The notes beneath the pieces are model-generated. The model did not search any database and had not been told where the DNA came from. It saw only the letters and a program-made list of their open reading frames with translations. Source: a virus. From it: 64,000 bases of DNA. The stretch is from the IMG/VR virus record IMGVR_UViG_3300009553_000019, positions 1 through 64,000 of that record, one strand, 5' to 3'. Each line of letters begins with the position of its first letter. The first letter of the stretch is position 1. A program made the position numbers and the translations under genes. This document shows positions 2,645 to 58,371 of the stretch, piece after piece.

Positions 2645-2645
2645 C

Positions 2646-3044: not shown

Positions 3045-3055
3045 TCAGTGATTAG

Positions 3056-5178: not shown

Positions 5179-5235
5179 TGTACATCAAATGTGTAATCAG
5201 GACAGACTAGGTACCAGAAGTTGGCTAATTAACTT

Positions 5236-7313: not shown

Positions 7314-7343
7314 CTTGGTATAATTACGACAAGTAGGGAAACG

Positions 7344-9779: not shown

Positions 9780-9837
9780 CCTGACGTAACCTAAGTTTTA
9801 GTTGTCGAGTTGATACTATTATCATGAGGAATCTCAA

Positions 9838-16087: not shown

Positions 16088-18511
16088 ATGACTATCGATC
16101 TTTCAGTATATACAGACCCAGGCGTGTACCAGCAAGAGGTTATTCAACCTCAAGCATTAGCTACAGGTCAGGTGCCAAATGTACTGGCTGTAGTTGCTAT
16201 CGGTCCTCGGTCTAAGCGATCGACTAACGAGATTGTTCAACGTGGTATCGTACTTAACGAATCTGTAACTTTCAGTACCCCATCTCCTTACAATTACACA
16301 TTGTTGAGTCATGGAAATCGTCGTAAACAAGATACAACGATTTTAAGGAATGGTACTGATTCAATCCCTCTGGGTGGTTATGATTATCTTCCAGCTTCAA
16401 AGCAAGGAGTAGCTGGACCCTACAACATTCCTGCAACTTCATATCTTACCTTTGAGTTAGATCACAAGGGTTACCTCTCAGTATTAATCACAGCGTCAGC
16501 TACTCAAACTGCTGGGGTAATTGTAGGCCTAATTAATGCAGCTCTAGCAGCTGATGCTAGGTATGGGGTACCATACAACGCTGTAGCTTCAGTTGCAGGT
16601 GGCAATGCAGTCAAGATAACTTCACCAGTTACTGGTGCTACATCTGACTTTAGAATTATTCAGACCCCAGCAGCCACTGGTGGTGATGTAGGTGTTGTTA
16701 TTTTTGGTGGTTCGCTACCATTTATCGCAGACACAATCGTTCAACTGAATCCACTTCAGTATGTTACTGGTGCTACTTATACGATTTCCTACGTATCGAC
16801 AGATAACCAAGTCGATCCATTGACATTTAGTCCAGTTACCAGCATCATCAAAATTGGTAATACTGCGAATGTCACTTCTTATGCTAAGAGTGTTGATTAC
16901 ACCTTAAACGGTAACAATGTTGATTGGTCACTAAATACTCAAGCAACAGTTACTGGTCCTGCTGGAACCTTTAATACGACGGTGCTTAACAGTATCAAGT
17001 TTGCGGTTAATGGTTTAGCAGCTCTTACAGTTGCAATTCCAACTGGAGCAACGACTTCAGCTGCAGCAATTGCAACAGCTTTAAATACCGCTTTAATTGC
17101 TAGTTCAGCATATGGACCTCTGTATGGTTCGGTGTTTACTGCACCTAGTACTTCAGTTGTAGCTACTGCTCCAGCTCAATTTCAAGACGAGCCTGTAGCT
17201 AGAGGTGTGAATAGCATCATTGAATTCTTTGATACACCAAACAACTCTGCAAACTTAGTGTTTGGTATCACTTCCTTTCCTTACCAAACAATTGGTTCAG
17301 CTGACCAACCAACATATGGTTCTCTGTATTTCATTACTTATGAGTACGTTCGGCCTACTTCTGATTACAACAACCCAAGTCCTGTAGATCATAGATTCTT
17401 TGACGAGACATCTGCATATCTTTATACAGAGCCACTAACTGCTGATAATATCTCAGTTAATAAGTTGGCGATGGCAGTGAGAGTAGCATTTGAGAATAAT
17501 ACCCCACAGATCATCTTGATTCAGGTGAATGATCAGAATCAGCCTGGTTCTCCATCAATTAATGAGACCAAGGCAGCCATTGACTCGGCTAGCAACAACA
17601 GCAGCATTACAGAGCTGGTGGTTCTCGATACTAGACTAGCTGTTCAATCTTACTTGCTGTCTCATGTCACTACACAATCCGCGATTCTCGAGAAGAATTA
17701 TCGTAGAGGTTGGTATGGCATGGCACGAAACACTCCAGTGGGTGACATCGACACGCCCAACACTTTCGTCTACAGAGCACAGATCACACTTCAGGTTCCA
17801 CCAGATAGTCCTGGAAGAGGTCGATCCATCATCTCTGCTCCAGCAAATGTTTCCAAGACATTTACTCTAGAGTCTGGAGCTGAGCAAAAAGTGTTGTTGG
17901 ATTCGACTTATCTTAGCTTAGCAACAGCAGCAGTGATGTGTAGCTTTCTATCAGTAGCGACCTCTCTATTGCGCAAGACGATTGTTGGATTCGATCTCGA
18001 TGATTTCCAGGTTTATCAGAAGGGTGAGCGTAGAACACTAGCAGCTAACGGTGTAAACGTTGTAACTCTTGATGGTGGAAACTTTAAGCTAACTGATCCG
18101 GTAACCACTGAACAGGGTGCTGGAAACCTTAGAGAGTTTACTGAAATTAGTGCAGGTGCTCAGAAGGATAAGGTTGTCAGAGGGATTGATAAAACTCTAG
18201 ACACCAACGCGGTCGGTATTGTGCCTTCAGATCTAGCCGATTACATTAACGACATCAAGGGGCTGATTGCAAATGAGCTTCGATCAATGATCGAAACTGG
18301 CGACATTGCACGTTACAAAGATCAGAATGGAAACCCTCGAGATATCAACCTCCAGACTGATATGCAGGTCTTCCAAAGCCCGACTGATCCTACCAGATTT
18401 AATTTCAGGTATTACTTCAACCTACGCTATCCAGCCAAGAGATTCTTTGGTGAGTGGTCGGTAGACAATCCGTTTTTTGGTGCAGCAAATTCAGGACAGC
18501 AAACATCTTGA
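16088..18511 (+). CDS. Contractile tail sheath protein with inserted surface domains
   Basis: N-terminal YTDPGVY..E, C-terminal LAANGVNVV...DPVTT...EIS and FNFRY.FNLRYPAKR; 807 aa. Confidence 0.85.
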   Translation: MTIDLSVYTDPGVYQQEVIQPQALATGQVPNVLAVVAIGPRSKRSTNEIVQRGIVLNESVTFSTPSPYNYTLLSHGNRRKQDTTILRNGTDSIPLGGYDYLPASKQGVAGPYNIPATSYLTFELDHKGYLSVLITASATQTAGVIVGLINAALAADARYGVPYNAVASVAGGNAVKITSPVTGATSDFRIIQTPAATGGDVGVVIFGGSLPFIADTIVQLNPLQYVTGATYTISYVSTDNQVDPLTFSPVTSIIKIGNTANVTSYAKSVDYTLNGNNVDWSLNTQATVTGPAGTFNTTVLNSIKFAVNGLAALTVAIPTGATTSAAAIATALNTALIASSAYGPLYGSVFTAPSTSVVATAPAQFQDEPVARGVNSIIEFFDTPNNSANLVFGITSFPYQTIGSADQPTYGSLYFITYEYVRPTSDYNNPSPVDHRFFDETSAYLYTEPLTADNISVNKLAMAVRVAFENNTPQIILIQVNDQNQPGSPSINETKAAIDSASNNSSITELVVLDTRLAVQSYLLSHVTTQSAILEKNYRRGWYGMARNTPVGDIDTPNTFVYRAQITLQVPPDSPGRGRSIISAPANVSKTFTLESGAEQKVLLDSTYLSLATAAVMCSFLSVATSLLRKTIVGFDLDDFQVYQKGERRTLAANGVNVVTLDGGNFKLTDPVTTEQGAGNLREFTEISAGAQKDKVVRGIDKTLDTNAVGIVPSDLADYINDIKGLIANELRSMIETGDIARYKDQNGNPRDINLQTDMQVFQSPTDPTRFNFRYYFNLRYPAKRFFGEWSVDNPFFGAANSGQQTS

Positions 18512-18544: not shown

Positions 18545-18877
18545 ATGACACCAGAACAAGAAGCTAAGATCGACCAACTACTAAAAATGGTTGGAGATGT
18601 TGCCAACGATCAGATAGCCCTTCGACAGAAGTTAGAAAACTGTGTAGGGGTAGTAGAAGTTCTGGTGCATAAACAAGGAATTCAGCAAGAATCTCTAAAA
18701 TCTGCTTGGGATGCAATTATGCGAGCAGTTGATAGAAGAAAAGACTTAGACTCGAAGATTCTAAGTCTACAAGAAGTTACAGGAAATGCTTTTGATGCCA
18801 TCAAATCGATAACAGATCATCTTGGCATTCCAGCACTTACAGAAAAAAATGACAGGTCCTCGGTGTCTTCTGGTTGA
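18545..18877 (+). CDS. Hypothetical coiled-coil protein
   Basis: 110-aa ORF with strong RBS GAGGAG and heptad pattern. Confidence 0.6.
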   Translation: MTPEQEAKIDQLLKMVGDVANDQIALRQKLENCVGVVEVLVHKQGIQQESLKSAWDAIMRAVDRRKDLDSKILSLQEVTGNAFDAIKSITDHLGIPALTEKNDRSSVSSG

Positions 18878-19223
18878 TGATGAGCCAGGGCTATTAAGAC
18901 TAGTTTCTAGAATTCTTGAAATTCACTGTAATATGACTGTAGTTACTGCATCAAACGCTATAGTAGCACTTCAGCGACTTCATGCTGAAAGTTTTGATAT
19001 CTTAGTTACTGATGAGGGTATGCCTGGTCCTTCTGGTTTGCATCTTTTGAAAGTTGCAAAAGAGAAATGGCCATTAATGCGAAGAGTCTTATTGACTGGG
19101 GCAGCAAATAGTGAGCAGATGAATTCTGGCATTGCTGATGCAGTAATTGATAAGATCTTCAACTCCAAGGTAATAGCCTCAAAGATTTGTCGTCTAGCCT
19201 CAAATGCTAGGAATATCACTTAA
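18849..19223 (+). CDS. Stand-alone CheY-like response regulator (receiver domain only)
   Basis: LLVDDE, FDILVTDEGMPG.SG (phospho-Asp), RRVLLTG (conserved Thr), IDK (conserved Lys). ATG at 18849 preferred over TTG 18822. Confidence 0.9.
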   Translation: MTGPRCLLVDDEPGLLRLVSRILEIHCNMTVVTASNAIVALQRLHAESFDILVTDEGMPGPSGLHLLKVAKEKWPLMRRVLLTGAANSEQMNSGIADAVIDKIFNSKVIASKICRLASNARNIT

Positions 19224-19276: not shown

Positions 19277-19729
19277 GTGCCTACTAATCCTCCAAATACA
19301 CTGGTTAGAAGCTCTCATGCTTTGACCATCAGAGCAAACGGTATAACAGTTGGCGTTATTCAAGGCTGGTCTCCAGCTATGAATCGGGCGATTACACCGG
19401 TATATGAAATATCGGTCGCTACCAGCGGTGAACCCATTGAGAACGTACCTGGAAATGTTGGTGGGTTAACCATCTCCGTCTCCCGATTTGATCTATACAC
19501 TAAGCGTATGGAGTCAGCATTTGGTACACCAGATGTAGCAATGCTAGGAGATCACAACAACCCATTCCAGGTTCTCGAAATTTGGAGATTCCCTGATAAT
19601 ACTCAAGAGGGCTGGCTTTATCTAGGCTGTTGGTTCTCCAACATGGGTAGAAACTATTCTGCTACCGACCAACGCTTAGTAAATGTTTCAGCATCTATTT
19701 CGTATGTTCGTAAGATTCGGTCAATCTGA
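19277..19729 (+). CDS. Tail tube protein
   Basis: 150 aa, after sheath. VG.IQ.W, R.I.PVYEI, E.VPG, L.GCWF, SASISY pattern of myophage tubes. Confidence 0.8.
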   Translation: MPTNPPNTLVRSSHALTIRANGITVGVIQGWSPAMNRAITPVYEISVATSGEPIENVPGNVGGLTISVSRFDLYTKRMESAFGTPDVAMLGDHNNPFQVLEIWRFPDNTQEGWLYLGCWFSNMGRNYSATDQRLVNVSASISYVRKIRSI

Positions 19730-20399: not shown

Positions 20400-20930
20400 A
20401 TGTCTGATCAAAATGATATCTCAAACGCAAAACGACAATCAGCCTTAAATGTACTTGACGATCTAGCATCGGAATTGGATCAGGGGTTTCTTGAAGAAAC
20501 ATATACTGTAAAAGGAGTAGAATGGACAATTCGTCTACTGAACGACCATGAGAGAAACTGGGCTAATGGCTATCTGAGAAACGCCTCTCTTACTTCGATG
20601 GCAACCTCTTTGAGATCCCCAACATTAGCTATCGCTATTCGTAAAATTAACGGGTTAAGTGTTGAGGCATTTTTTACACAAAAATGGCAAGAACGAGAAA
20701 CTGCGTTGAGCGAGGTTGAGAAGGCAATTTTAGCTGCTACCAACCAGTTCGTAAAACAGTACTTTTTTGCTGAAACATTATTTAAGTGGTTATCTGAAAG
20801 ACCTCCACAATTTGTTCAAGAGTTATGGTCAAAATACACAGCTTTAGACGATCGTAGGGAGGCAGCAGAAAGCGCCATGGGAAAATCTTTGGGGCAGGTT
20901 GGGACATCGGAGACTCCCCAGACTACTTAA
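20400..20930 (+). CDS. Tail assembly chaperone (gpG-like, short form)
   Basis: Between tube and tape measure; RBS AGGAG; slippery G GGA AAA near the 3' end. Confidence 0.75.
   Translation: MSDQNDISNAKRQSALNVLDDLASELDQGFLEETYTVKGVEWTIRLLNDHERNWANGYLRNASLTSMATSLRSPTLAIAIRKINGLSVEAFFTQKWQERETALSEVEKAILAATNQFVKQYFFAETLFKWLSERPPQFVQELWSKYTALDDRREAAESAMGKSLGQVGTSETPQTT
20879..20885 (+). other. Programmed -1 ribosomal frameshift site GGGAAAA
   Basis: X XXY YYZ heptamer in frame (ATG GGA AAA). The -1 frame is open for 60 codons into the 21059..21676 ORF. Confidence 0.8.
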
Positions 20931-21676
20931 AAGATGATCCATTTCTAAAAACATTACGTGAAGATCCAGCTCTTAGCTGGAGGTGGACTCAACTAAAGAT
21001 AAAGGCTAGAGTTTGTCATTCAAAAGGTTTACTATTAAGCGATGACAGGCTGAAGTTTATGAACAAGTCCAGGTGGATGTTTGAAACCTGGCAAATAGCC
21101 TTATCAGAGACACAAAAAGCTAATCAAACCACAAAGATTGGTGAACTAGGGTTTAAAGCTTTACAGAACTTGCTGGTAAATCTTATAGGTTTGAACATTG
21201 AACCCGTTGTTGATGATTCAAAACCACTTGATAAAGATGGTAAGCCAGCATATCGATGGCCAATAGGTGAAGAGTTTACTCCGTTGATCTTAGCAATTGC
21301 CCGCCCTGACTACGTAAAACAGGCAATGGATAAGATAACTACCCTTACTGAATCAGCAACAGCTGAATCTACTGAAAGTGACTATTCAGAAGATGATCTG
21401 CAATTCTTTGATGACTTACCAATCAATGAGAAGCAAACAGTTTGGAATAGTGCGGAATTCCAAAACCAGCTAAAGTCTCTCGTCATTATGAAAGATTCGG
21501 CTTCTGTTGACCCTTTTGCTGAAAAGATAGAACAACCTGTTGGTCCTACAGCTGAAGATAAGAAACGTTTAGCAGAAGAGCAAGCTTTTAATCGACCAAG
21601 GAGAGCACCAGCATTTAAGGTTGATGCTGATACTGAAGATTTGCTTGATTTTGGTGAACTTAAGAAAGACATTTGA
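20879..21676 (+). CDS. Tail assembly chaperone, frameshifted C-terminal extension (gpGT-like; ~425-aa fusion)
   Basis: The -1 frame reads GKIFGAGWDIGDSPDYLKDDPF...LKFMNKSRW... with no stop. The 21059 ATG lacks a clear RBS. Confidence 0.75.
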   Translation, partial: GKIFGAGWDIGDSPDYLKDDPFLKTLREDPALSWRWTQLKIKARVCHSKGLLLSDDRLKFMNKSRWMFETWQIALSETQKANQTTKIGELGFKALQNLLVNLIGLNIEPVVDDSKPLDKDGKPAYRWPIGEEFTPLILAIARPDYVKQAMDKITTLTESATAESTESDYSEDDLQFFDDLPINEKQTVWNSAEFQNQLKSLVIMKDSASVDPFAEKIEQPVGPTAEDKKRLAEEQAFNRPRRAPAFKVDADTEDLLDFGELKKDI

Positions 21677-24030
21677 TGGAACTAGAAGCAGAGCTAAGTG
21701 TTGAAGGTTTAGATTCAACATCCTCTTCCTTTACTGATATGGGTAAAGCGGTGGAGGAGTTTGAGCCACTCGCTGAACGACTTGCTAAAGCATTAGGCTC
21801 TGTTTCTGCTACATTAGATTCGCTATCTAAAAAAGTAGATAGCGAGGTTAAGCTAAGTCAAGAGCAGCAAAAGAAACTTGACGAAAAACAGCAGGATCAG
21901 GAACGTAAAAAGAGTGAAGAAGATGCAAAAAATGAGCAATCAAGGCTTCAAAACAAAGTTGCTCAGTTGATTGGTGGTGGGATTAACACTGCTGCTTACG
22001 CTCAAGCTCTCGATAAGGTAAAAGAGCAAGAAGATGCAATTCAAGAAGCTGCTAAGAGAGGGTTGATAACAACTAAGGAAAAGGTTGAAGCTTTAGGTAA
22101 GCTAAAGGTTCAATACAGCAAGTTAGCCACCGAATCTGCAGTCTACAACGCACTAGGTCAAGGTGCTATTGGTAGGATAGCAGCTACAACGACTAGTAGA
22201 TTAATGTCGGTACCTGGCAAAGCTGTTGACGCGGTTGGATCACAGATTTCAGGTATTGGGACGGGGTTGATGGGTTTAGCAGGCTCATTACCCATCGCTG
22301 GTGGACTTTTTGGGTTGATGCTATATGGTGTAATGAACCAAGACAGACTCAATAGAGAAGCTGGGGAGATCCTTAACATAGGTTCAGCCATGGCTGGAAA
22401 CCTTACCTCTGCTGGTTCTGGTTGGTTATCCGGATTCCAAGAAAAGGCACAAAAGTACTACGCAATTAACAAGAGCGAGGTACAGGGCCTTCTTTCAACG
22501 TTTAAAGAAGCTGGATTCTCAATAAACGATGTACTAAAGAAGCAGTCGGGGTCATTAGGCGAGGTTGGGTCTAACATTATGACCCTGACTTTAGGTATTG
22601 ATAAACACTTTGAGCTAGCATCTGGGGCATCTGCAAGAAATGTAGTTTCGCTAGTTAACGACTTTGGCATGAAGGTAAAAGATGCTGGGGATCTTTACGA
22701 GAAATTGGCTTTTGCGGGTTCTAGATCTGGTATCGGTGTACAAAACTTTGTTAACTATGTTCAGCAAGGTTCAATGACTCTACGGCAGTATGGTGTTTCT
22801 GTAGAAAATACTGCTGTAGTTTTGACCAAGTTACAAGACGCTTATGAAGCAATGGGCATGCCCAAGGCTTTGGCTGGTACTCAAGCGGGTATAGCTTTGG
22901 GTCAAATTTCCGGAGGGATGGCCAATCTAAATTCTGGAATGCAAGGCTATATGGCTGAACGAATGGGGATGGGTCAGGGTATCGAAGCTAGGATGCATTT
23001 TAGGGAAGGGATGGAGCGGTTATCAAAGGGTGGGGCTGATAATTCATTCCTGAGTGATTTCATTCGTCAAGCTAGACAAATGGCGCTTGAATCAACTGGT
23101 GGGGATTCAGCCATGGCGAGATATTTCCTCGAGCAGCAGGGGTTTGGTTTTGAAGGAGCCAAGGGGATAATGACCATTGGTGATAAGTTAGATAAGGGTC
23201 AAACCTTAGATCAGCTATCACTAAAAGAACAACAATCCCTTAGAGATTCCTTTATGACTGAAGGTCAGAAACAGGGGGAAATCCAGAAGAATATGAATAA
23301 GATTCTTGCTGGGATGGCTGACATAGGACAAGGTCTCTTAAAGATTGTAACCAACTTTGTAGGGTGGGGAATCGTATTTTTCAAGACATTGATGGTTCGT
23401 TTTACAGGAACAGAAGAAGAGAAGCAGAAAGCTCAAGTTGAGCTCGATAAGTTCTCAAAAGGTATGCGGGAAGGCGCTAGTCAAATTTGGGGTGGCAAAG
23501 ATTCAACTGGTGGTTTTAAGGGTTTAAAATCTGGATTTGGTGGGTTGTTAGCACCAATTGCTAAACCATTGACAGATGCTATTGAATGGGATCCACATTC
23601 AGCTAATTCACCTCCTCCCATTCCAATTGATGAACATACAACTAAAAAAGAAGCCGAAACTAAAGCTGCTGAAGCTGCATACCAAAAGTCAATGGTAGGT
23701 CAAATTGATAAATACTCGGATGAGTATTACCACAAGTTAGTACATGATTCAGATTCAACTGCAATGCAAGCCCTATATGCTGCTAACGCTGGGTTAGCAA
23801 AAGTAGAAATTGGTGCATTGAAGGCTATATCCCATCCGATTGAGAAGTTCAACAATTGGCGAAGTGGCGGAAGTTGGGAATCGGATGACGAAAAAGCTGC
23901 TAAGGATAGAGGGGTGCAGGCATATGATGCATGGCAAGCAGCTCATGGCAAGAAAGTTGTCATAACTGTTGAAGCAAGTAGTAGTAATCAACAATCACGA
24001 CCATCAACTAGATCAATAATGGATCATTAA
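21673..24030 (+). CDS. Tape-measure-like protein, paralogue 1
   Basis: 785 aa, helical A/G/Q/K-rich, follows the chaperone, with hydrophobic GLFGLMLYG segment. Confidence 0.7.
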   Translation: MMELEAELSVEGLDSTSSSFTDMGKAVEEFEPLAERLAKALGSVSATLDSLSKKVDSEVKLSQEQQKKLDEKQQDQERKKSEEDAKNEQSRLQNKVAQLIGGGINTAAYAQALDKVKEQEDAIQEAAKRGLITTKEKVEALGKLKVQYSKLATESAVYNALGQGAIGRIAATTTSRLMSVPGKAVDAVGSQISGIGTGLMGLAGSLPIAGGLFGLMLYGVMNQDRLNREAGEILNIGSAMAGNLTSAGSGWLSGFQEKAQKYYAINKSEVQGLLSTFKEAGFSINDVLKKQSGSLGEVGSNIMTLTLGIDKHFELASGASARNVVSLVNDFGMKVKDAGDLYEKLAFAGSRSGIGVQNFVNYVQQGSMTLRQYGVSVENTAVVLTKLQDAYEAMGMPKALAGTQAGIALGQISGGMANLNSGMQGYMAERMGMGQGIEARMHFREGMERLSKGGADNSFLSDFIRQARQMALESTGGDSAMARYFLEQQGFGFEGAKGIMTIGDKLDKGQTLDQLSLKEQQSLRDSFMTEGQKQGEIQKNMNKILAGMADIGQGLLKIVTNFVGWGIVFFKTLMVRFTGTEEEKQKAQVELDKFSKGMREGASQIWGGKDSTGGFKGLKSGFGGLLAPIAKPLTDAIEWDPHSANSPPPIPIDEHTTKKEAETKAAEAAYQKSMVGQIDKYSDEYYHKLVHDSDSTAMQALYAANAGLAKVEIGALKAISHPIEKFNNWRSGGSWESDDEKAAKDRGVQAYDAWQAAHGKKVVITVEASSSNQQSRPSTRSIMDH

Positions 24031-24845
24031 TGCCCGTTTCCCCATCGTTAGCACAGGCCCTAGACCTAGCAAACCGTTTTAATCGAGGTGATGGGAATGC
24101 AGGTCCTCGAATTCCCATGTTGATATACTCTGATGCTACTGCCGCCAGAGGCGAACCTCCTCTTCAGTTAAGAATCAATCCGCAGTCTGTAGCTTTTAAT
24201 CAACCAAAGCGCATATCAAAAAAGAATACGCAAGCTGGAACTGTGTATATGCATTGGTCTGACGAGAATGGAAGTAACAATGACATTCTTGAAATGCAGT
24301 TTAAGGGCAAAACTGGCAACATCAACCTGAAACACGATAAACCAAATCAACCAACTCTAGTTGGTAATGCTCTTCAAACGTTAGCAAATACACTTTCGAA
24401 TACTCCACCAAATCAAGGTCCAGCGCCTAATCAAGGAGCTGGAAAACTTTACACTTGGGCTAGGTTGTACCAAATGACACTAGCACCAACTCTGGATTTT
24501 TTGCCAGTTGGAAATACTGGTGGAACTTCCCGTCAAAACATAACTTCTTACATAGTTTATCGATCTCCCCTCCTACCACGAGCTATTAGATTTGGTGGAT
24601 TCTTTAACAACGCTTTAACATTTGCTGAAAATGCTGAACAGCCATGGTTAGTAGACTGGTCATTTAGCTTTATTGTCCAAAAGACAAATCCACCTCTCAA
24701 CCAACTTACTTCTTATCTAAACAACATCCTAACTGGTGGAGACAATGCTTTTGTAACCACCATTCAACAAGCTCAGAGAGATACAGTAGAGATGGCAGAG
24801 ACTAACAGAGCTGCTCAAGTAAATACAAATTTCAAACAGGGTTAA
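24030..24845 (+). CDS. Tube-initiator/baseplate tail-tube-fold protein
   Basis: INPQS....K.I.K..T.AG, F.G.F...F.E.AE.P....WSFSF.V pattern. Confidence 0.6.
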   Translation: MPVSPSLAQALDLANRFNRGDGNAGPRIPMLIYSDATAARGEPPLQLRINPQSVAFNQPKRISKKNTQAGTVYMHWSDENGSNNDILEMQFKGKTGNINLKHDKPNQPTLVGNALQTLANTLSNTPPNQGPAPNQGAGKLYTWARLYQMTLAPTLDFLPVGNTGGTSRQNITSYIVYRSPLLPRAIRFGGFFNNALTFAENAEQPWLVDWSFSFIVQKTNPPLNQLTSYLNNILTGGDNAFVTTIQQAQRDTVEMAETNRAAQVNTNFKQG

Positions 24846-24848
24846 GTC

Positions 24849-27023
24849 TTGGAAAAAGAAGTTGAATTAGACCTGGAAGGAGTTGCTTCTAGTTTTACAG
24901 ATTTAGGTAAAGCTATAGCCTCCTTGGCTAATTCAGCTGAAAATTACTCTGAAATTTTAGCTCAAAAGAAACAGAAAAAGACTCCTGAGAAAGAAAACGA
25001 TACTTTAGACCCGCTACTGCAACTTCAAAAAGATCGTCAAGTAGCTCTAAGAGAATTTTCTTCTCAGCTGCAGTTAGCAGGACTACCTCAGGCTGAAATT
25101 AGAGAGTTAGTGACCATTCAAGAAAACATACTAGCTCTTGGCGATGCTGAAAAAACAGGTTTAATAACCCGTACGGAAGAAGCTGCTGCAATAAAAAGCA
25201 TGAGAAAAGAGTTGGTAAAAGCTTCAGCTAGGGCTGAAGGAATTGACGAAAATCAACTTAACTCTGCTATGAATTCTGTTGGGGTTTCAAAAGGGTCTAG
25301 ATTGTTAGGGAAGGTTAGCAATCTTGGTGAGCAGCTAGGAGAAATGTCTGGTGGCTTTGGAAAGATTTTCGGATCTTTCACTGGGTTAAGTTCACTGGCA
25401 ACAGGAGGGTTTGCTAGTGCTGGAGTAATGGGTGGAGGGTTAGCATTGTTTGGTGCGATGCTATTTGGAGCTACTGAAACTAGCAGGTTGGGAGCACAGT
25501 ATGGACAAATCTATAATCTAGCAGTTGCTGATGGCGATTCTAGCTATAAGGCTGGTGTTGAATCTTTAGCAGCTTTTCAAGAAAAAGCACAGCATTATTA
25601 TGGTGTAGCTAAAACTGAAACTCTTGCCAACATAAAAATCTTCGTTGATGCGGGTTCCACGTTTAAGAGTATTTTTTCTGCTGAAGCTAAAAGCTGGGGT
25701 GAGGTAGGTGAAAATGCTGTTACGATGTCAATTGGTCTAGATAAGTTTTTCGAATCTGGGGATGGGTTTGCAGCTAAAACAGCAACCTCTATAACTAGAA
25801 ACTACAACCTTGATTTAGAGAAGGCAATCAAGGTTGTAGCAGGTATGGAATTTCAGGCTAAAAACCTTGGTTTTAGTGTAAGCTCCTTTGTTAGCTGGAC
25901 CCTACAAGCAACAGGTAATGTCAGGGAACTTGGCGGGAATTTAGAAGAAACTGCAAGTGCTCTAATCCAACTCAAGAAAAAATACATAGAGTTGGGGTTT
26001 ACAGGTGAGTCTGCTAACAGAATGGCAAACGAGGCTTTACAGTCATTGGTTGGTGGGTTAGCCCATATGTCTACTGGCCAACAGATAAGCATGGCTACAG
26101 AACTTGGCCTAGGCTCTGGGTTAGCAGGTAGACAGGAATTGTTAAACGGTATTGCCAGGGGTGAAGACTCAATCTTAGAGAAAGCTACAAAAGTACTTCG
26201 TGAACGAGCAATGAAGGCTGGTGGTGGTAGAGAATTTGAAGCTAGATTTGTCCTACAGGAAACTATGGGATTTTCTGGTGAAGGGGCGAGAGCTGTTTTA
26301 CTTTTAGGTGAGAAATTCGATAAGGGTTTGAAACTTACCGAGCTTAAAGCAACAGATAAAGCCTTACTAAGAAAAGCGTTTATAGACGAAGGAACGAAAA
26401 CCTCTGCTATTGAGAAGAATAACAGAGAGATGATGGATGGCATAGCTGAGTTAGGTAAGGGCTTACTAACCATTATTGGTAGTTTTTTAGGTGTAGCTAT
26501 TGTTGGTTTTAAAGCCACTCCTGACCTGATTTATGGAAGCGCTGCTGAAAAGTCCGCAGCAGTGGCAATGTTAGATAAAGAATTACGATATATGGATGCT
26601 GGGTTAAATCTAGCAGAAGCAGGTAGTAAAAAGGCCTTATCAGGTGTTTGGCATCAGATTGAGCCACTTTTAAGACCTGTAAAAGAGGCTCTTAGTTTTA
26701 ACGCTATAGGTGTAAAGTCACCTGAACCTGTTGAAAAACCTTCTCCTATATCCTCAGCTAAACCAACGAAATCCCTACCTTCGTCTTGGGATGTTGCTAA
26801 ATCACCTTCTCCTTCATCATTCTATCAGACAGATAACCAAAGCAAAGCTCCAACCACAAAACAACTAAAAAATGGTTACAAACCAACAACACAGGCTATT
26901 AAGGATTTGGGTAAGACCAAAGTCGAACAGACTGAAGATGCTATAAAGAATGCAGAATGGCAGTGGTTACCTGGATCTTCAGACCCTGACAAACAAGTCA
27001 AAGTTCAAATGACCATTCAATGA
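24849..27023 (+). CDS. Tape-measure-like protein, paralogue 2
   Basis: Shares EG..SSFTD.GKA, FQEKAQ.YY, GEVG.N and F..EG.K with paralogue 1. Confidence 0.7.
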   Translation: MEKEVELDLEGVASSFTDLGKAIASLANSAENYSEILAQKKQKKTPEKENDTLDPLLQLQKDRQVALREFSSQLQLAGLPQAEIRELVTIQENILALGDAEKTGLITRTEEAAAIKSMRKELVKASARAEGIDENQLNSAMNSVGVSKGSRLLGKVSNLGEQLGEMSGGFGKIFGSFTGLSSLATGGFASAGVMGGGLALFGAMLFGATETSRLGAQYGQIYNLAVADGDSSYKAGVESLAAFQEKAQHYYGVAKTETLANIKIFVDAGSTFKSIFSAEAKSWGEVGENAVTMSIGLDKFFESGDGFAAKTATSITRNYNLDLEKAIKVVAGMEFQAKNLGFSVSSFVSWTLQATGNVRELGGNLEETASALIQLKKKYIELGFTGESANRMANEALQSLVGGLAHMSTGQQISMATELGLGSGLAGRQELLNGIARGEDSILEKATKVLRERAMKAGGGREFEARFVLQETMGFSGEGARAVLLLGEKFDKGLKLTELKATDKALLRKAFIDEGTKTSAIEKNNREMMDGIAELGKGLLTIIGSFLGVAIVGFKATPDLIYGSAAEKSAAVAMLDKELRYMDAGLNLAEAGSKKALSGVWHQIEPLLRPVKEALSFNAIGVKSPEPVEKPSPISSAKPTKSLPSSWDVAKSPSPSSFYQTDNQSKAPTTKQLKNGYKPTTQAIKDLGKTKVEQTEDAIKNAEWQWLPGSSDPDKQVKVQMTIQ

Positions 27024-29464
27024 CTGATCATTTATCAGACTTAAGCAAGGCGATTCTGTTCTTTGCTCAGAGAACCGAAAAGCTGTATGCTGATTTGGGA
27101 TCCTTATCTGACTCTTACGGTGAAAAGGGTAATTCCTTAGTTGATGAGAACCTACCTGATGAGGTTAGAGAACAGCTTGAAACAGAGCATAAAGAGCTTC
27201 AAACAGTTTCAAAATTAGTTGGCAACGATACCTCTGCTAACTTATTAGCAGATATGAAACGAATTGAAATTCGTTTATACGAATTAGACTCTGCTTACCA
27301 ATTAGGGCTAGTTACTGATTCAGAACACCTGAAGACTTCAGAAGAGTTAAATCATGCCTATGATGATTTAAATGCAACATTAAAAGCCAGCTCCTTAACA
27401 GGAGTTTCAGCAGCAAAGAAGCTCTCATCTTTACCAAAGAAAGCTGGAGATTTAATAAGTGGGCAATTAGGGGGTGTACTAACTGGTACTGTTGGACTGA
27501 TAAGCAACCTCACATCCCATCTACCCGCAGCGGGACTATTCGGGTTGCTTTTGTATGGAATCCTAGAAAAAGATAGGCTAAACCAACAAGCAGGGGAAGT
27601 TGTAAACCTGCTATCAGCAACAGGTAGTGAATTAACAAATGCCTCGATTAACCACTTAGCATCTTTTCAAGAAAAAGCTAGTAAGTTTTACTCAATCTCA
27701 AAAGAGTCAGTTCAGGGTGTTGTAAAGGAACTAGTAGATGCTGGTATGTCTGTTGAACAGATTACCCGAGTTCAATGGAAAAACCTAGGGGAGGTGGGGG
27801 AGAATGTAGTAACTGCATCTTTAGCAGTAGATGCTTTCTTTGAACATAGTCAAGGGTTTACTAATTCAGCAGCAGTAGAGTTGATAGACCAGCATGGTAT
27901 TGCTTTAAATAACGCAGTTAACCAAATTGTAAAGATTGAATTTGCTGGAAAAAATGCAGGGGCAGGTGTTGAAGAATTTACTAAAGAAGCATTGGAAGCT
28001 TCTGCAGAATTGAAGAATTATGGTGTTGAAGCTGAATCAGTAGCATCCTTATTAATTGCAGTTCAGCAAAGTTATGAAAAGACTGGTTCAAGTGCCCAAT
28101 CTGCTATGAAGTGGGCTTTAGATGGAATGTCTGAGATAGCGGGTGGGTTCAAGAATTTATCAGTGGGTATAAACTCTAAATTAGCTCAGTCTATGGGTTA
28201 TGGATCTGGAATTGAGGGAACTTATGCCTTAAGGGATCGAATTGCAGTTGATGACCCCAACCAACTAAAAGAGCTGGTAGACCACCTATTCGATATCGTT
28301 AAAAGTACCGTTTCAGATACTGCAAACCCCATGCTATCTGATTCAACCAAGATGCGTCTGTATCTTGAGGGGTTAGGGTTTGGGCAACAAGGTTCAAAAG
28401 CTTTAGTTGAGGTAGCAGGAAAACTAGACAAACCACTAGCCGAAGTTTCCAAGGAGGAATGGTCTGGTATTCGACAGGCTTTTACCCAAGAAGGTACTAA
28501 AACCTCTGCCATCATGAAAGATACCGAGCAGATCTTAATTGGTATGAGAAATACTGGTCAAGGTTTGCTTGGTATGTTTACTAATTTTGCTGCTTATGCA
28601 ATTATGTCAATGAAAGCATTATTGCAGTTAGATTGGGCTGATGTTGCGGGCATATTTAACCTTCCCGGTAGCTCTCTACTTCCACATAACGATGAGTTGA
28701 AAAAGTCAGTCTCAACTGCATTAGATCAACAGTGGCATAGAGTAACTGATTCGATGGATCAAGTTAAGCACGGGTTTTCAATGTCTTGGGAGGGAATAAA
28801 AGACATTGCTCAACCAGTTCTTGAACCAGTAGCAGTTGCTAGAGATTTGAAGGTAAATCCAGTTTCTAGAGTTGGTGGGGATGGGGGACCAAAACGGATG
28901 GTAACTATGACAACCACCAAGCTTTCTATGAAGCAAGCTGTTAATGTTTTAGCTACGGCATGGCAAAATGTTTTTGGAGAACAGAATGATGAAGCAGTAG
29001 CTCTTCTTGCTTCTCAGTGGTCAGTAGAGACTGGAACTGGCTCTAAAATGTACAATTACAACTTTGCAGGGATAAAGGGGTACAGCTACCTGGGTACAGC
29101 GTTTTCATCAAAAACAAAAGAAGGGTATGACAAGACTGAAAAAGTGATTACTGATAAGTTTCGAGCTTATGAAACGGTGGAACAGGGAGCTGAAGATTAT
29201 GTTCGATTTCTAGCTTCTAAATACAAAGATGCTGTAAATGCTGCTGCCGAGCATAATGCTAACGAATTTGTACACCAACTAAAGGCTCATCATTATTTCA
29301 CAGGATCAGAAAAAGTGTATACAAAGTTGGTTAATTACTATTCTTCGATAGCTCTAAAAACAATTAAAGAAGTTCGAACTTCAATTTCTAGTGCTGTTGT
29401 AACTAACAATGTAAATGGAAGATCCGTAAAGTTGGTAGTGAATGTTCAAGAAGCAGGTCTTTAA
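27020..29464 (+). CDS. Tape-measure-like protein, paralogue 3, with C-terminal GH73 (FlgJ/glucosaminidase-like) peptidoglycan hydrolase
   Basis: Same shared motifs. C-terminal SQWSVETG.G..MYNYNFAGIKG, TKE, FRAYET.EQG..DY..FL, Y.T...Y. Confidence 0.8.
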   Translation: MTDHLSDLSKAILFFAQRTEKLYADLGSLSDSYGEKGNSLVDENLPDEVREQLETEHKELQTVSKLVGNDTSANLLADMKRIEIRLYELDSAYQLGLVTDSEHLKTSEELNHAYDDLNATLKASSLTGVSAAKKLSSLPKKAGDLISGQLGGVLTGTVGLISNLTSHLPAAGLFGLLLYGILEKDRLNQQAGEVVNLLSATGSELTNASINHLASFQEKASKFYSISKESVQGVVKELVDAGMSVEQITRVQWKNLGEVGENVVTASLAVDAFFEHSQGFTNSAAVELIDQHGIALNNAVNQIVKIEFAGKNAGAGVEEFTKEALEASAELKNYGVEAESVASLLIAVQQSYEKTGSSAQSAMKWALDGMSEIAGGFKNLSVGINSKLAQSMGYGSGIEGTYALRDRIAVDDPNQLKELVDHLFDIVKSTVSDTANPMLSDSTKMRLYLEGLGFGQQGSKALVEVAGKLDKPLAEVSKEEWSGIRQAFTQEGTKTSAIMKDTEQILIGMRNTGQGLLGMFTNFAAYAIMSMKALLQLDWADVAGIFNLPGSSLLPHNDELKKSVSTALDQQWHRVTDSMDQVKHGFSMSWEGIKDIAQPVLEPVAVARDLKVNPVSRVGGDGGPKRMVTMTTTKLSMKQAVNVLATAWQNVFGEQNDEAVALLASQWSVETGTGSKMYNYNFAGIKGYSYLGTAFSSKTKEGYDKTEKVITDKFRAYETVEQGAEDYVRFLASKYKDAVNAAAEHNANEFVHQLKAHHYFTGSEKVYTKLVNYYSSIALKTIKEVRTSISSAVVTNNVNGRSVKLVVNVQEAGL

Positions 29465-31992
29465 TGCCTAGATTAACGCGAGGGGAAAATCAAGGATATG
29501 TTAGAAACTTGTTCCCTGCTTACCGGGTGTATGTTGGAGGTGAGAACGTTACAGAATTAGTAACGTCGGTCAGGACTCAATGGCCGGATGGTAGTCCTTC
29601 AGAAGCAACCATTGAGTTGGTCAACCCCAACAAATTGTTAACCATCACTAGATCAGACATAATCACAATAGGTAATGCTAGATTTGATCTGATAAACCAA
29701 ACTACTGATCAGGGTATTGTAGATAGAACTAATCAAATTCTGTTTACCGACGAGGATGCCGATTTACGCGAAATTATTGAAGCTAATAATGAGATTGAAG
29801 CTAACCGTCGAAATGTTTCTGTAGGTGATTTTACGGAATCGGTAGATAAGCTAGTTTCAGATCGATTTAAAGACGCTAGTCGACGAATTGGAATTGAGGA
29901 TGTGATTGCTTCTACTCCACTGTCAGCTAAGGTAGCAGGGCTAAAATCTCGTATGGTTCAAAAGAAGCAAGATTTGAAATTCATACAGGGGACTACCAGC
30001 TTTGATGGATCCGCAGCTACTTCAGAACCATTTTTTAAGTGGCCTTTCTATGAGGGTTTATGGATTTTCCACCATCAAGATCCAGTTAGAGTTGCTTTTC
30101 GAGATCCTTACGACCCCTCCATTTGGTACTGGATGCATGCAGGTACCATTACCGATATTAATGAACGTGAAACTGATAATCTTCAATCAACGGTTACCAT
30201 TAATTCAGAAGGCGTTTTAAAAGACCTTAGATATGCTAGAATTGCAAATGTCACTACTGCTCTGTTGACCCCTGATCAAATTACATCGATCAAGGATCAA
30301 CAGACAGGATTTTCAGGTGAGCAACTGTCAAAATTGCAGGCTACTGTATTTTCTAATTTCTTACAGAATAGCACTCTAGACCAGGTTGTGGAGTTAGTCG
30401 TTTTTGGCTCTACTTCAGTAGCAGATCAGTTAAAACAAAGTATTAACGCAATTACCAATGGTACCGTAGCTCCAGAAGTAGCTTTGGTAAGGTTTGGTTT
30501 TAACCCATCCCTACTCAGCAAAGATACAAGCACAGGGACTTCTGGAAATCCCACCACAACAGCTAGTAACACTACTGCAACTTCTGGAAATATCAGTCAG
30601 TTGATTCAATCAGCTCAAATTTCTGAAGAACAGTTTAGAGGAATGAATATTGATGCAATCTCTAACTTCAAGAGATTTTCAAATCAGCAGGGACTTGATG
30701 TTAGGATCATAGGTGGACCAGTTGGTCCCGTTGATGAGTTGATCGGGGCACCAATTGACGGGCTATTCGATTGGCAGAGCCTGCTTGATCATCAGGTAAG
30801 ACTGTCTGACATCCAGACGATGGCTTTTCCTGAAAATACTAACAGAAGAGGAGCTACTTCTGACGTAGCCTTTGGTTCACAACCTTCTAATCCTAATTCC
30901 TCATCAAACTCCACCATTGGTATAACGACTTCTAGCATTGAAGACACCATTGATCAAATTGGTGAAGATATTCAGACCTATCCTATACGCCAGCGGGTTA
31001 AGATGTTGTTACCAGCAAATCTTGGCCCTTCTTTAGGTAGAGAGGTTCTAGATAGAGACTTCGCTGCTTCACCTGCAATGCAGGCAGAGTATTATGATCG
31101 ACTTTCTTTACTTCAGCAGATTGTGGAAAGAATTGAGTTTTCACTCTACGACACTCCAAGAGGCGATATAGTCATAGAGCATCCCCTGTACGACTTTGAA
31201 CCTCGTCATTTTTCTGGTGGAGGAGGGACGAATGCTTTTAACCAATCTGCAGACTCTTTTGACTTAACCGACCAACAAATGGCTGAATTACTTGGTGTGG
31301 AGGATTTACCAACTCCTTCAGCTGCCACTATCCAACAAGATAACATTGGAAATAAATATCAGAACAATTACGTAGTTGGTTCTTTTGAAACCATCAGTGT
31401 AGATATTGGTAGCTCTGAAGAGAATGTAAAAACAGTAATGGTCTGTACGCCAAGACTCTTACCATCAATCTCTGGTGATAACAGTAGACGAGACAACAGA
31501 CAGGTTCTTGTTTCTTTACCTAACTTAGTACCGCTGTATGGTTTTAGACTTGAGCAAGGTGATGTTCTTGGTTCTATAACTACAGTAGAAGCTGCTAGGC
31601 TGTGGGGCCATGTCATGCTAAATCGAATGAATGCTGATATGGTTAGTATGCGAGTTCCAGCTTTACCTAATTGGTGTTCTTGGCCAAATAGGCCACACTA
31701 CATACAGACTAGAAATGTGATGGCGGTAACTAAATCAGTATGTCATACTATAGCATGGCAATCAGACTGTAGCACAGAATATGGTGTAAACCACTGTAAA
31801 TTTTGGGATGGCAGGACTCAAAAATCAGATGTCCTAACTGGTAGCGTAATTTCAAAGCCATTGGTTCCAAGATTCGTCCCATTTGGTGGGGTTAATGCTA
31901 GACCATTCAACTATTCAGACATACTTCGTGTAGAATTTGATCAAAGAGGTCAACCTACACCGTACAATGCTGCAAATAAGGCTCCACAATGA
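29464..31992 (+). CDS. Baseplate hub protein (gp27/VgrG-N-like)
   Basis: YRVYVGG..V, ATIEL.NP, M.AG.IT, EFSLYDTPRGDIVIEHPLYDF, V.KSV.H.I. Confidence 0.65.
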   Translation: MPRLTRGENQGYVRNLFPAYRVYVGGENVTELVTSVRTQWPDGSPSEATIELVNPNKLLTITRSDIITIGNARFDLINQTTDQGIVDRTNQILFTDEDADLREIIEANNEIEANRRNVSVGDFTESVDKLVSDRFKDASRRIGIEDVIASTPLSAKVAGLKSRMVQKKQDLKFIQGTTSFDGSAATSEPFFKWPFYEGLWIFHHQDPVRVAFRDPYDPSIWYWMHAGTITDINERETDNLQSTVTINSEGVLKDLRYARIANVTTALLTPDQITSIKDQQTGFSGEQLSKLQATVFSNFLQNSTLDQVVELVVFGSTSVADQLKQSINAITNGTVAPEVALVRFGFNPSLLSKDTSTGTSGNPTTTASNTTATSGNISQLIQSAQISEEQFRGMNIDAISNFKRFSNQQGLDVRIIGGPVGPVDELIGAPIDGLFDWQSLLDHQVRLSDIQTMAFPENTNRRGATSDVAFGSQPSNPNSSSNSTIGITTSSIEDTIDQIGEDIQTYPIRQRVKMLLPANLGPSLGREVLDRDFAASPAMQAEYYDRLSLLQQIVERIEFSLYDTPRGDIVIEHPLYDFEPRHFSGGGGTNAFNQSADSFDLTDQQMAELLGVEDLPTPSAATIQQDNIGNKYQNNYVVGSFETISVDIGSSEENVKTVMVCTPRLLPSISGDNSRRDNRQVLVSLPNLVPLYGFRLEQGDVLGSITTVEAARLWGHVMLNRMNADMVSMRVPALPNWCSWPNRPHYIQTRNVMAVTKSVCHTIAWQSDCSTEYGVNHCKFWDGRTQKSDVLTGSVISKPLVPRFVPFGGVNARPFNYSDILRVEFDQRGQPTPYNAANKAPQ

Positions 31993-33912: not shown

Positions 33913-34338
33913 ATGTCTTCGACTTTTCTTGTTCAAAATAATGACGCTGTATATGATGTCTCTGGTAGACCAAAAACTATTGTAGATCACGCAAAAGTTC
34001 GTCAAGACATTGCCGAGATGCTATCTATCGAAACTCAACCATCCGGGTTTGGTTCTGGAATTATCTCACTGCTTGGAAAAGTTGATGGAGCACTCTCGGA
34101 TGGAGTAAACAGTAACATTGATTTTTCAATACGAGATAAGATTGAATCTGCTACTACTCGATTTATTGGACTACAGAGAAAGAATCTGAAAAACCGACCA
34201 TTTACAGAACAGATTTCCGGTCTAGACTTTTTTGATGTTCGTCAAAGCTCAACAGATCCCACACTGTATATCTGGAAAGCTGCTTTTAGTACCGTTGACG
34301 GAAACTTTATCAATAGAAGTGGTAGCTTTAATTTATGA
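33913..34338 (+). CDS. Baseplate wedge/sheath initiator (gp25/W-like)
   Basis: 141 aa, K..QD...L, FGS....LLG, DP..Y; precedes the J-like gene. Confidence 0.6.
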   Translation: MSSTFLVQNNDAVYDVSGRPKTIVDHAKVRQDIAEMLSIETQPSGFGSGIISLLGKVDGALSDGVNSNIDFSIRDKIESATTRFIGLQRKNLKNRPFTEQISGLDFFDVRQSSTDPTLYIWKAAFSTVDGNFINRSGSFNL

Positions 34339-53048: not shown

Positions 53049-53121
53049 CGGGGTATGGCGCAGTTGGTAGCGCGCGTGCTTTGGGAGCATGAGGTCGCCA
53101 GTTCGAGTCTGGCTACCCCGA
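53049..53121 (+). tRNA. tRNA-Pro(TGG)
   Basis: Acceptor CGGGGTA/TACCCCG; anticodon arm CGTGC-TTTGGGA-GCATG; T-loop GTTCGAGTC; CCA not encoded. Confidence 0.95.
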
Positions 53122-53130
53122 CTATAATCT

Positions 53131-53203: not shown

Positions 53204-53238
53204 CTAATGACTCTTTGTAAAAATCTTGATTCTGCTAC

Positions 53239-58350: not shown

Positions 58351-58371
58351 CTGAAAGAAAGGAGGTTCAAA

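What the first reader, a model, noticed from the sequence alone, without database searches (positions are those of the whole stretch)
21673..29464. Three length-matched tape-measure paralogues: candidate heteromeric tape measure with divided labour
Seen: three 724-814-aa helical genes share colinear motifs (FTD.GKA/LSDLSKA, GLFG..L.G...RL...G, FQEKA..YY/FY, GEVG.N, GFG..G.K, F..EG.K, G....G.GLL, terminal V.V.V strand). The sequences are heavily diverged, yet the FQEKA-to-FxxEGxK distance is 272, 268 and 272 codons (22435-23251, 25575-26379, 27665-28481). Only copy 3 carries a GH73 muralytic domain; copies 1 and 2 have unrelated, partly low-complexity C-termini. A tube-initiator-like gene splits copy 1 from copy 2. 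Established: tailed phages normally encode one tape-measure gene whose product oligomerises in the tube. Inference: conserved register suggests the three chains co-assemble side by side in one tail lumen (heterotrimer or heterohexamer), each delivering a different C-terminal cargo. A less likely alternative is interchangeable tail variants.
Basis: partly seen in the sequence, partly recalled or inferred. Interest (0 to 1): 0.85.

Follow-up and report, generated by a model that had tools for sequence, protein, structure and literature searches.

The report
Three conserved tape-measure paralogues, one tail
An uncultured large contractile-tailed phage, like most of its sampled relatives, carries two or three old, intact copies of the normally single tail "tape measure" gene, and only one copy carries a cell-wall-cutting enzyme; the copies probably share one tail tube, but that is not shown.

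Summary
Window 21673-29464 holds three colinear paralogues (785, 724 and 814 aa; about 30% identical). A tube-initiator gene splits copy 1 from copy 2, and only copy 3 has a GH73 domain.

They are tape-measure proteins (TMPs). A frameshifting chaperone pair (slip site GGGAAAA) lies directly upstream. The fold matches annotated TMPs. The Pfam PhageMin_Tail matches are sub-threshold. Sheath, tube-initiator and baseplate-wedge genes flank them.

All three copies form separate orthologue clades kept intact in six related phages. Across about 23 distinct loci of this TMP family the copy number is 1, 2 or 3, never more. Duplication happened independently at least three times, and only the long copy was found to carry a wall hydrolase (GH73, CHAP or M23).

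The indel-free core spacing is the same in every family member, including a single-copy relative, so it does not indicate co-assembly. A mixed tape measure in one tail is still the most plausible reading, because solved TMPs are trimers, a duplicated homomer mixes by default, and the genes are translationally coupled. It remains untested; the complex prediction gave no verdict.

The scan has noted TMP paralogue sets in other giant phages, and "two potential tape measure proteins" are published for Staphylococcus jumbo phages.

The parts
16088..18511 (+). Tail sheath gene (807 aa)
   Evidence: ESM Atlas structural look-alikes are clusters carrying Phage_sheath_1/1C, DUF2586 and DUF3383 (TM by target up to 0.85). 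There is a weak DUF4815 match.
19277..19729 (+). Candidate tail tube gene (150 aa)
   Evidence: Matches phrog_985 'virion structural protein', E 1.3e-9. A conserved ~150-aa gene follows the sheath gene in all relatives. The tube fold itself was not tested.
20400..20930 (+). Tail assembly chaperone, G-like ORF (176 aa)
   Evidence: It overlaps the next ORF, which lies in the -1 frame, directly upstream of copy 1.
20879..20885 (+). Slippery heptamer G_GGA_AAA in the zero frame (programmed -1 frameshift site)
   Evidence: The same GGGAAAA is found in L009 and L010; AAAAAAA sits at the equivalent place in L004, L005 and L008.
20858..21676 (+). -1 frame extension of the chaperone (GT-like; annotated ORF 21059-21676)
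   Evidence: The frame is open from 20858. The stop-start junction with copy 1 is TGATG.
21673..24030 (+). TMP paralogue T1 (785 aa; probable start ATG 21676). It is the slowest-evolving copy. Hydrophobic segments at residues 197-222 and 554-577; indel-free core 213-571.
24030..24845 (+). Tube-initiator-like gene (271 aa)
   Evidence: The AF2 model matches small tube-fold chains in solved contractile baseplates (phi812, phiCD508, AFP, PVC, Anabaena CIS, A-1(L) 'baseplate-initiators') at E 9e-6 to 3e-3, prob 0.99-1.0. Atlas look-alikes carry Phage_tail_tube_init or Dit_like.
24849..27023 (+). TMP paralogue T2 (724 aa, TTG start), with an S/P/K-rich C-terminus. Hydrophobic segments at residues 186-211 and 531-558.
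27020..29464 (+). TMP paralogue T3 (814 aa), the lysin-bearing copy. Hydrophobic segments at residues 164-182 and 516-535.
29000..29323 (+). GH73 (glucosaminidase) domain of T3, residues 661-768, with Glu670 in SVETG
   Evidence: Pfam PF01832, E 3.8e-9, above the gathering score. It aligns to solved FlgJ at E 9e-5, with Glu670 on the ALETGWG glutamate.
29464..31992 (+). 842-aa gene in the position of the baseplate hub (unverified)
   Evidence: A conserved ~790-860-aa gene follows the TMP and tube-initiator genes in every relative. It has no family or PDB match.
34335..35768 (+). Baseplate wedge subunit (477 aa)
   Evidence: phrog_6 'baseplate wedge subunit', E 4.1e-17.

Best explanation
The three genes are anciently duplicated tape-measure proteins (TMPs) of a contractile tail.

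Shown: all three are intact, colinear and co-oriented. They are chained by overlapping stop and start codons from the frameshifting tail chaperone through to the hub-position gene. Each is conserved as its own orthologue group in related phages.

Inferred: because a TMP is a trimer inside the tube and the copies of a duplicated homomer mix by default, the paralogues most likely enter the same tail lumen as a mixed (hetero-oligomeric) tape measure. T1 would be the conserved scaffold or ruler chain. T2 and T3 would be faster-evolving chains, and only T3 carries a C-terminal peptidoglycan hydrolase. On this reading each tail delivers one, or few, enzyme-bearing chains next to the hub, where that end leaves first on ejection. 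The two hydrophobic segments that flank the conserved all-alpha core of every copy would then take part in membrane passage, as proposed for other TMPs.

Sub-claims: TMP identity about 0.9; co-residence in one tail about 0.55; strict 1:1:1 heterotrimer about 0.35.
For: TMP identity:
- A G/GT-like ORF pair with a zero-frame GGGAAAA slip site lies directly upstream, and is conserved (as GGGAAAA or AAAAAAA) in five of the ten relatives checked.
- The named rows among the top 50 Foldseek BFVD matches of the T1 model are almost all tape-measure or minor tail proteins, E 1e-7 to 3e-4.
- PhageMin_Tail matches 8 of 37 family members below threshold, and TMP_3 matches 1.
- All 8 weak tblastn hits in cultured phages fall on annotated TMP genes.
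- The proteins are all-alpha with two hydrophobic segments each.
- Sheath, tube-initiator and wedge genes flank them.

Retention:
- T1, T2 and T3 are each monophyletic (SH-aLRT 98-99) across window, L006, L009, L010 and L011, with L012 added. All frames are open.

Recurrence:
- A single-copy relative (L013) branches outside T1+T2+T3.
- All window-lineage copies share a 4-residue deletion (segment 231-255 is 24 residues, against 28 in almost all other copies; 27-31 in five).
- The tube-initiator gene sits at a different place than in the S/L lineage.
- The duplications are therefore independent.
- Copy number over about 23 distinct loci is 1, 2 or 3, never more.

Division of labour:
- Wherever a hydrolase domain was detected it lies on the long copy: GH73 in window and L009, CHAP in L010 and L011, M23 in L004, L014 and one ENA contig.

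Co-expression:
- The gene junctions are TGATG, TAATG, TAAgtcTTG, ATGA and TAATG.

Literature:
- Three TMP C-termini dock on the tail tip of myophage Pa193 (PMC11456595).
- Duplicated homomers commonly persist as heteromers of paralogs (PMC6711710).
Against: - No direct evidence shows that any of the three is in the virion, or that they touch.
- The conserved core spacing is family-wide and does not co-vary within genomes.
- Almost no columns are conserved differently in the three clades, so no specialised hetero-interface is visible.
- N-terminal lengths differ by 10-40 aa between paralogues.
- Two-copy phages need an uneven 2:1 ratio or a 3:3 hexamer.
- Pfam matches stay below the curated cut-off (20.5 against 33.2 bits).
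- The phage is uncultured and no cultured relative is in the phage collection searched.
Confidence: 0.55

Rival explanations
1. One ruler plus TMP-derived cargo. Only T1, the conserved copy, is the tape measure proper. T2 and T3 are TMP-derived ejection or tail-lysin proteins. They use the TMP-like body to be loaded into the tube or hub, but they are accessory and do not set tail length.
For: T1 orthologues are 44-52% identical, whereas T2 and T3 orthologues are only 29-43% identical. T1 has about twice as many conserved columns, although its orthologue set includes closer relatives than the T2 and T3 sets. In the window lineage T1 keeps the ancestral place before the tube initiator, as the single TMP does in L013. 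Staphylococcus jumbo phages have a TMP beside a TMP-like 'tail lysin' (bioRxiv 10.1101/2020.12.14.422802).
Against: T2 and T3 keep the whole TMP architecture, including the N-terminal motif, both hydrophobic segments and the indel-free core, over very long divergence. T2 has no recognisable cargo. This rival overlaps the main model, since all copies would still share one lumen.
Confidence: 0.2
2. Alternative tails. Each paralogue forms its own homotrimer, so the burst contains up to three kinds of virions with different tail-lumen proteins. This would be bet-hedging over host envelope states.
For: Each paralogue retains all TMP features and could in principle function alone.
Against: Virions lacking the hydrolase-bearing chain would be handicapped. 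Three homologous chains sharing one chaperone pair and one hub would need evolved self-specificity to avoid mixing, and almost no clade-specific conserved positions are seen. Tight translational coupling gives no means of choice.
Confidence: 0.12
3. Serial tape. The three proteins lie end to end and together measure a tail about three times as long.
For: Total TMP length correlates with tail length in known phages (PMC3556154), and some large phages have very long tails.
Against: All copies keep the same N-terminal and post-core motifs rather than complementary head-to-tail ends. The single-copy relative has a 741-aa TMP with otherwise the same tail module, so each duplication would have doubled or tripled tail length, and this would have had to happen repeatedly in independent lineages.
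Confidence: 0.05

Closest known systems
Canonical single-gene tape-measure proteins with the PhageMin_Tail / TP901-type core (e.g. lambda gpH; Pa193 gp41, whose three C-termini are seen at the tail tip, PMC11456595)
   Same: The gene position is the same: after a G/GT chaperone pair with a -1 frameshift and before the tube initiator and hub. The protein is all-alpha with hydrophobic segments. It matches annotated TMPs at fold level and at sub-threshold profile level.
   Different: Here there are three diverged paralogues instead of one gene. The Pfam score is below the curated cut-off. The core is unusually indel-free across the whole family.
TMPs with a built-in cell-wall hydrolase (phiCbK gp95 with CHAP, PMC3556154; T5 pb2 and mycobacteriophage TM4 TMP, from my own knowledge)
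   Same: A muralytic domain is fused to the TMP and delivered through the tube. The enzyme type varies between phages.
   Different: In those phages every chain of the homotrimer carries the enzyme or motif. Here the enzyme was found only on one paralogue, the long one, while one or two enzyme-free paralogues are kept beside it.
[quoted passage not shown] Also the DC4 tail lysozyme (1962 aa) beside its TMP (1990 aa) (PMC10638138).
   Same: Adjacent TMP-like genes occur in a large myovirus, with peptidoglycan-degrading domains on them.
   Different: Those are ~2000-aa proteins in two copies and were mentioned only in passing. No phage of that group appeared among the tblastn matches of T1 or T3 in the cultured-phage collection. 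The present family shows a triplet, orthologue-level retention and repeated independent duplication.
Heteromers of paralogs arising from duplicated homomers (PMC6711710)
   Same: A homomeric ancestor (the single-copy TMP of L013 is the model) was duplicated and the copies were retained together.
   Different: That is a general principle from yeast. It has not been demonstrated for any phage tape measure.

Membership tests
Phage tail tape-measure protein | The gene lies directly after tail assembly chaperones made by a programmed -1 frameshift, and before the tube-initiator and hub genes | tested here: met
   The G-like and -1-frame ORFs overlap by 73 nt and hold a zero-frame GGGAAAA. This is conserved in relatives. 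A tube-initiator fold follows.
Phage tail tape-measure protein | Sequence match to a curated TMP family at its threshold (PF10145 PhageMin_Tail, PF20155 TMP_3) | tested here: inconclusive
   T1 scores 20.5 bits against a cut-off of 33.2. 8 of 37 family members match PF10145 below threshold (best E 3.2e-5), and 1 matches TMP_3.
Phage tail tape-measure protein | Predicted structure resembles known or annotated TMPs: long helices, an all-alpha core and hydrophobic segments | tested here: met
   AF2 model with pLDDT 71, above 90 in the core. The named rows among the top 50 BFVD matches are almost all TMP or minor tail proteins at prob 0.99-1.0. Each copy has two hydrophobic segments. There is no solved-structure match.
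Phage tail tape-measure protein | Protein length sets tail length; the protein sits as an oligomer in the tube lumen | not testable with these tools
   The phage is an uncultured metagenomic virus. There are no virions, EM images or proteome.
GH73 N-acetylglucosaminidase (T3 C-terminus) | Pfam PF01832 above the gathering score | tested here: met
   37.7 bits against 30.2, residues 661-768.
GH73 N-acetylglucosaminidase (T3 C-terminus) | Catalytic glutamate of the (A)LE(S/T)G(W)G motif | tested here: met
   T3 Glu670 (SVETG) aligns with the Glu of ALETGWG in FlgJ entry 2zyc. A second FlgJ entry, 3k3t, has Ala at that position. That this Glu is the catalytic acid is from my own knowledge. The YATD motif reads YFTG in T3.
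Tail tube initiator (Afp7 / Pvc7 / T4 gp48-gp54 type) for the 271-aa gene | Tube-like beta fold found as a small baseplate chain of contractile systems | tested here: met
   Foldseek PDB matches: phi812 baseplate chain M at E 9e-6; phiCD508, AFP, PVC and Anabaena CIS baseplates at E 1e-4 to 6e-4; cyanophage A-1(L) 'baseplate-initiators' at 2.7e-3. The model pLDDT is only 64, so this is a fold-class assignment.
Heteromeric (mixed-chain) tape measure | Physical association of the paralogues in one tail | not testable with these tools
   No virions, proteome or cryo-EM data exist for this uncultured phage.

The most novel reading that the evidence does not exclude
The tape measure of this phage clade is an obligate heterotrimer, one chain from each paralogue (2:1 in the two-copy phages). 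This state evolved convergently at least three times from a single-copy homotrimer. Copy number is capped at three by the three-fold lumen and hub, and the arrangement exists so that only one chain per tail carries a bulky, freely exchangeable cell-wall hydrolase.
Probability: 0.35. Interest if true: 0.85.

Novelty: new variant of a known kind. Interest (0 to 1): 0.62.

Why it matters
Textbook tail assembly assumes one tape-measure gene whose product forms a symmetric trimer. Here a large uncultured phage family breaks that rule: 436 sequence clusters matched the family profile, and about 23 loci were inspected. The family has repeatedly and independently multiplied the gene to two or three copies, never more in the sample. 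Each copy has been kept for a very long time, and the cell-wall enzyme was found only on one copy.

If the copies do share one tube, this would be the first asymmetric tape measure. It would be a natural example of a homomer turning into a heteromer, and it would explain how phages can swap a bulky enzyme on the tape measure without tripling it.

It also gives a practical annotation rule: neighbouring TMP-like genes in giant phages need not be frameshift or assembly artefacts. The Staphylococcus jumbo phages with two TMP-like genes are cultured and could be used to test the idea.

Tried and rejected
1. Complex prediction on the post-core segments (T1 500-645, T2 484-622, T3 461-615, each with its orthologue alignment) scored 0.01 against a mark of 0.32. 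This is 'no answer', neither for nor against.
2. Foldseek of the T1 model against the PDB gave nothing at E <= 0.001. VIA-align wide gave only generic helical hairpins, Z <= 9.9, over residues 103-166. A profile search of PDB sequences gave only coiled-coil noise.
3. I tested whether segment lengths co-vary between paralogues of the same genome, which would have supported an in-register assembly. They do not. Ten of fourteen core segments are essentially the same length in nearly every copy, and the variable ones follow paralogue clade.
4. I searched for columns conserved differently in T1, T2 and T3, as a possible hetero-interface signature. Only 2 mild cases were found.
5. The search for related loci with the broad alignments A2 and A3 failed because no conserved stretch was available. 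The narrower alignment A8 worked.
6. phmmer of the sheath, tube, 842-aa and 477-aa proteins against PDB sequences gave nothing useful.
7. Full-text searches for heteromeric or paralogous tape measures found no such report. The exception is the passing mention of two potential TMPs in Staphylococcus jumbo phages. The phiCbK, 0305phi8-36, SuMu and Shady hits were irrelevant wordings.
8. I rejected the idea that these are podovirus-type internal or ejection proteins, because sheath, tube-initiator and wedge genes and the G/GT frameshift are present.
Full report
WHAT IS THERE

The window is the first 64 kb of a 152.6-kb IMG/VR virus record, estimated to be 80% complete. Between 21673 and 29464 lie three + strand ORFs of 785, 724 and 814 aa, here called T1, T2 and T3.

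- They align colinearly at 29-30% identity, with more than 100 invariant columns.
- An HMMER search of the whole record with T1 finds exactly these three genes and nothing else, at E 0, 4.5e-76 and 1.5e-69.
- A 271-aa gene (24030-24845) separates T1 from T2.
- Only T3 has a GH73 domain: Pfam 37.7 bits against a cut-off of 30.2, residues 661-768.
- T3 Glu670 aligns with the glutamate of the FlgJ ALETGWG motif.
- The C-termini of T1 and T2 match no family.

ARE THEY TAPE MEASURES?

Yes, with about 0.9 confidence. Six lines of evidence agree:

1. Directly upstream, a 176-aa ORF (20400-20930) overlaps a -1-frame ORF that is open from 20858. The overlap holds a zero-frame G_GGA_AAA heptamer at 20879-20885. 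The same arrangement, with GGGAAAA or AAAAAAA, recurs in L004, L005, L008, L009 and L010. This is the lambda G/GT-type chaperone layout that precedes tape-measure genes (the general rule is quoted in PMC3556154).
2. The AF2 model of T1 (pLDDT 71) has long N-terminal helices. A Gly-rich hydrophobic stretch follows, then a confident all-alpha core (residues ~250-500, pLDDT above 90), a long hydrophobic helix (526-578) and a helical tail. The named rows among its 50 best BFVD matches are almost all tape-measure or minor tail proteins, at E 1e-7 to 3e-4.
3. PhageMin_Tail matches 8 of 37 family members, always below the curated threshold.
4. All eight weak tblastn hits in cultured phages fall on annotated TMP genes.
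5. Each copy has two hydrophobic segments at equivalent positions flanking the core.
6. The neighbours fit a contractile tail:
   - The 807-aa protein resembles tail sheaths.
   - The 271-aa protein folds like the small tube-like baseplate chains of phi812, phiCD508, AFP, PVC and A-1(L).
   - The 477-aa protein is a baseplate wedge subunit, phrog_6 at E 4e-17.
   - The order TMP, tube initiator, hub matches phi92 gp134, gp135 and gp137 (PMC13450770).

COMPARATIVE PICTURE

Profile searches find 436 cluster representatives of this TMP family, almost all between 680 and 1020 aa. None is in the cultured-phage collection searched. I inspected about 23 distinct loci.

The window lineage comprises the window, L006, L009, L010, L011 and L012.
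- It always has the order T1, tube initiator, T2, T3.
- In trees, T1, T2 and T3 are each monophyletic (SH-aLRT 98-100) and T2 and T3 are sisters. The triplication therefore predates phages whose T1 proteins are only about 50% identical.
- No copy has decayed.
- T1 evolves more slowly (44-52% identity between orthologues) than T2 and T3 (29-43%).

A second, larger lineage has a short (S, ~750-830 aa) and a long (L, ~870-1020 aa) paralogue in tandem before the tube initiator. A sub-lineage has duplicated S again, giving three copies. L005's record is 100% complete and holds exactly three.

A third type (L014 and one ENA contig) has the long copy first and then a short one.

One relative, L013, has a single 741-aa TMP between the chaperones and the tube initiator.

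Three observations indicate that the window-lineage triplication is independent of the S/L duplication:
- L013 branches outside T1+T2+T3.
- All window-lineage copies share a 4-residue deletion. Segment 231-255 is 24 residues in them, against 28 in almost all other copies, L013 included; five copies have 27-31.
- The tube-initiator gene sits after T1 rather than after all the copies.

An older duplication homogenised by gene conversion, with loss in L013, cannot be excluded without a rooted tree.

Copy number in the sample is 1, 2 or 3, never more. Wherever a wall hydrolase was detected, it lies on the long copy:
- GH73 in the window and L009.
- CHAP in L010 and L011.
- M23 in L004, L014 and the ENA contig.
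- None detectable in L005, L006 or L008.

I tested this by placing 15 anchor columns on about 70 family proteins.

- Ten of the fourteen segments are essentially the same length in nearly every copy (18, 26, 15, 22, 37, 19, 21, 20, 22, 19), including in the single-copy L013. This holds at 20-35% sequence identity.
- The few variable segments follow paralogue clade. For example, segment 490-530 is 42 residues in nearly all L copies and 40 in most S copies. They do not follow genome.
- The span from the N-terminal motif to the last conserved motif is 577-637 residues everywhere. It differs between paralogues of one genome about as much as between genomes.
- N-terminal parts differ by 10-40 residues between copies.

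The striking indel-free core is therefore a property of the family. It could reflect a folded domain or a ruler constraint. It is not a signature of co-assembly. A search for clade-specific conserved positions found almost none.

MOST LIKELY MECHANISM

Co-assembly remains the best model for other reasons:
- Solved tails show three TMP chains whose C-termini dock on the three-fold tip and hub (Pa193, PMC11456595).
- Immediately after duplication, identical chains must mix. Heteromers of paralogs are a common stable outcome of duplicating a homomer (PMC6711710).
- There is one chaperone pair and one hub for all the copies.
- The genes are chained by the overlaps TGATG, TAATG, ATGA and TAATG.
- Copy number never exceeds three.
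- In independent lineages the detected wall hydrolases all lie on a single copy.

The last point fits a heteromer that limits the number of bulky domains near the hub. It does not fit three redundant genes.

I put co-residence in one tail at about 0.55 and a strict 1:1:1 trimer at about 0.35. The rivals are:
- T1 as the only ruler, with T2 and T3 as TMP-derived cargo (0.2).
- Separate homotrimers giving alternative tails (0.12).
- A serial, three-fold longer tape (0.05).

KNOWN OR NEW

TMPs with hydrolase domains are well known. 'Two potential tape measure proteins' have been noted in Staphylococcus jumbo phages (bioRxiv 10.1101/2020.12.14.422802).

This scan has also noted TMP paralogue sets in other giant phages (e1-5688266, e1-5341612, e1-1958277). 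A look-up of T1 in the scan's index by shared short words found no look-alike stretches.

I found no report of a demonstrated heteromeric tape measure.

I rate this a new variant of a known kind. It is of moderate-to-high interest, but it rests on inference until virions are examined.

Noticed in passing
window 20858-20930 (heptamer at 20879-20885): A canonical -1 slip site G_GGA_AAA lies in the overlap of the two chaperone ORFs before T1. GGGAAAA is conserved in L009 and L010, and AAAAAAA is at the same place in L004, L005 and L008. No slip site was found in L013 or L014, and no overlapping ORF pair was detected by my script in L006, L011 or L012.
   Followed up: partly
window 18822-19223: A stand-alone response-regulator receiver domain (Pfam Response_reg, E 1.4e-14) is encoded between the sheath and tube genes. 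It is absent from that place in L006, L008 and L009, judging by gene sizes.
   Followed up: no
window 21673-21678: T1 more likely starts at ATG 21676 (TGATG overlap with the chaperone stop) than at TTG 21673. The database copy of the protein is 784 aa.
   Followed up: partly
window 2-12461: The module upstream of the neck holds a collagen-repeat protein (Pfam Collagen, E 3.5e-34), two apiosidase-like glycoside hydrolases with collagen-binding-type domains, a GT2-TPR-GT1 fusion, a GT4 and a B12-binding radical SAM enzyme.
   Followed up: no
window 29464-31992 and relatives: A conserved ~790-860-aa gene in the hub position has no Pfam, PHROG or PDB sequence match at all. The 447, 171 and 141-aa genes after it are equally unmatched.
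   Followed up: no
L010 1-9400 and L011 1600-8600: In two relatives the sheath-tube block and the chaperone-TMP block are separated by an inserted set of mostly reverse-strand genes, including an N6/N4 methyltransferase (L010) and a DpdA-like gene (L011).
   Followed up: no
window 53049-53204 and 58268-58351: Three tRNA genes (Pro-TGG, Thr-TGT, Leu-TAA) lie in the non-structural part of the window.
   Followed up: no
family-wide: T1 residues 213-571 and the equivalent region in ~70 proteins: The ~360-residue core is almost free of indels at 20-35% identity, which is unusual even for a folded domain. Whether this reflects a ruler constraint or a compact all-alpha fold (AF2 pLDDT above 90) is open.
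   Followed up: partly
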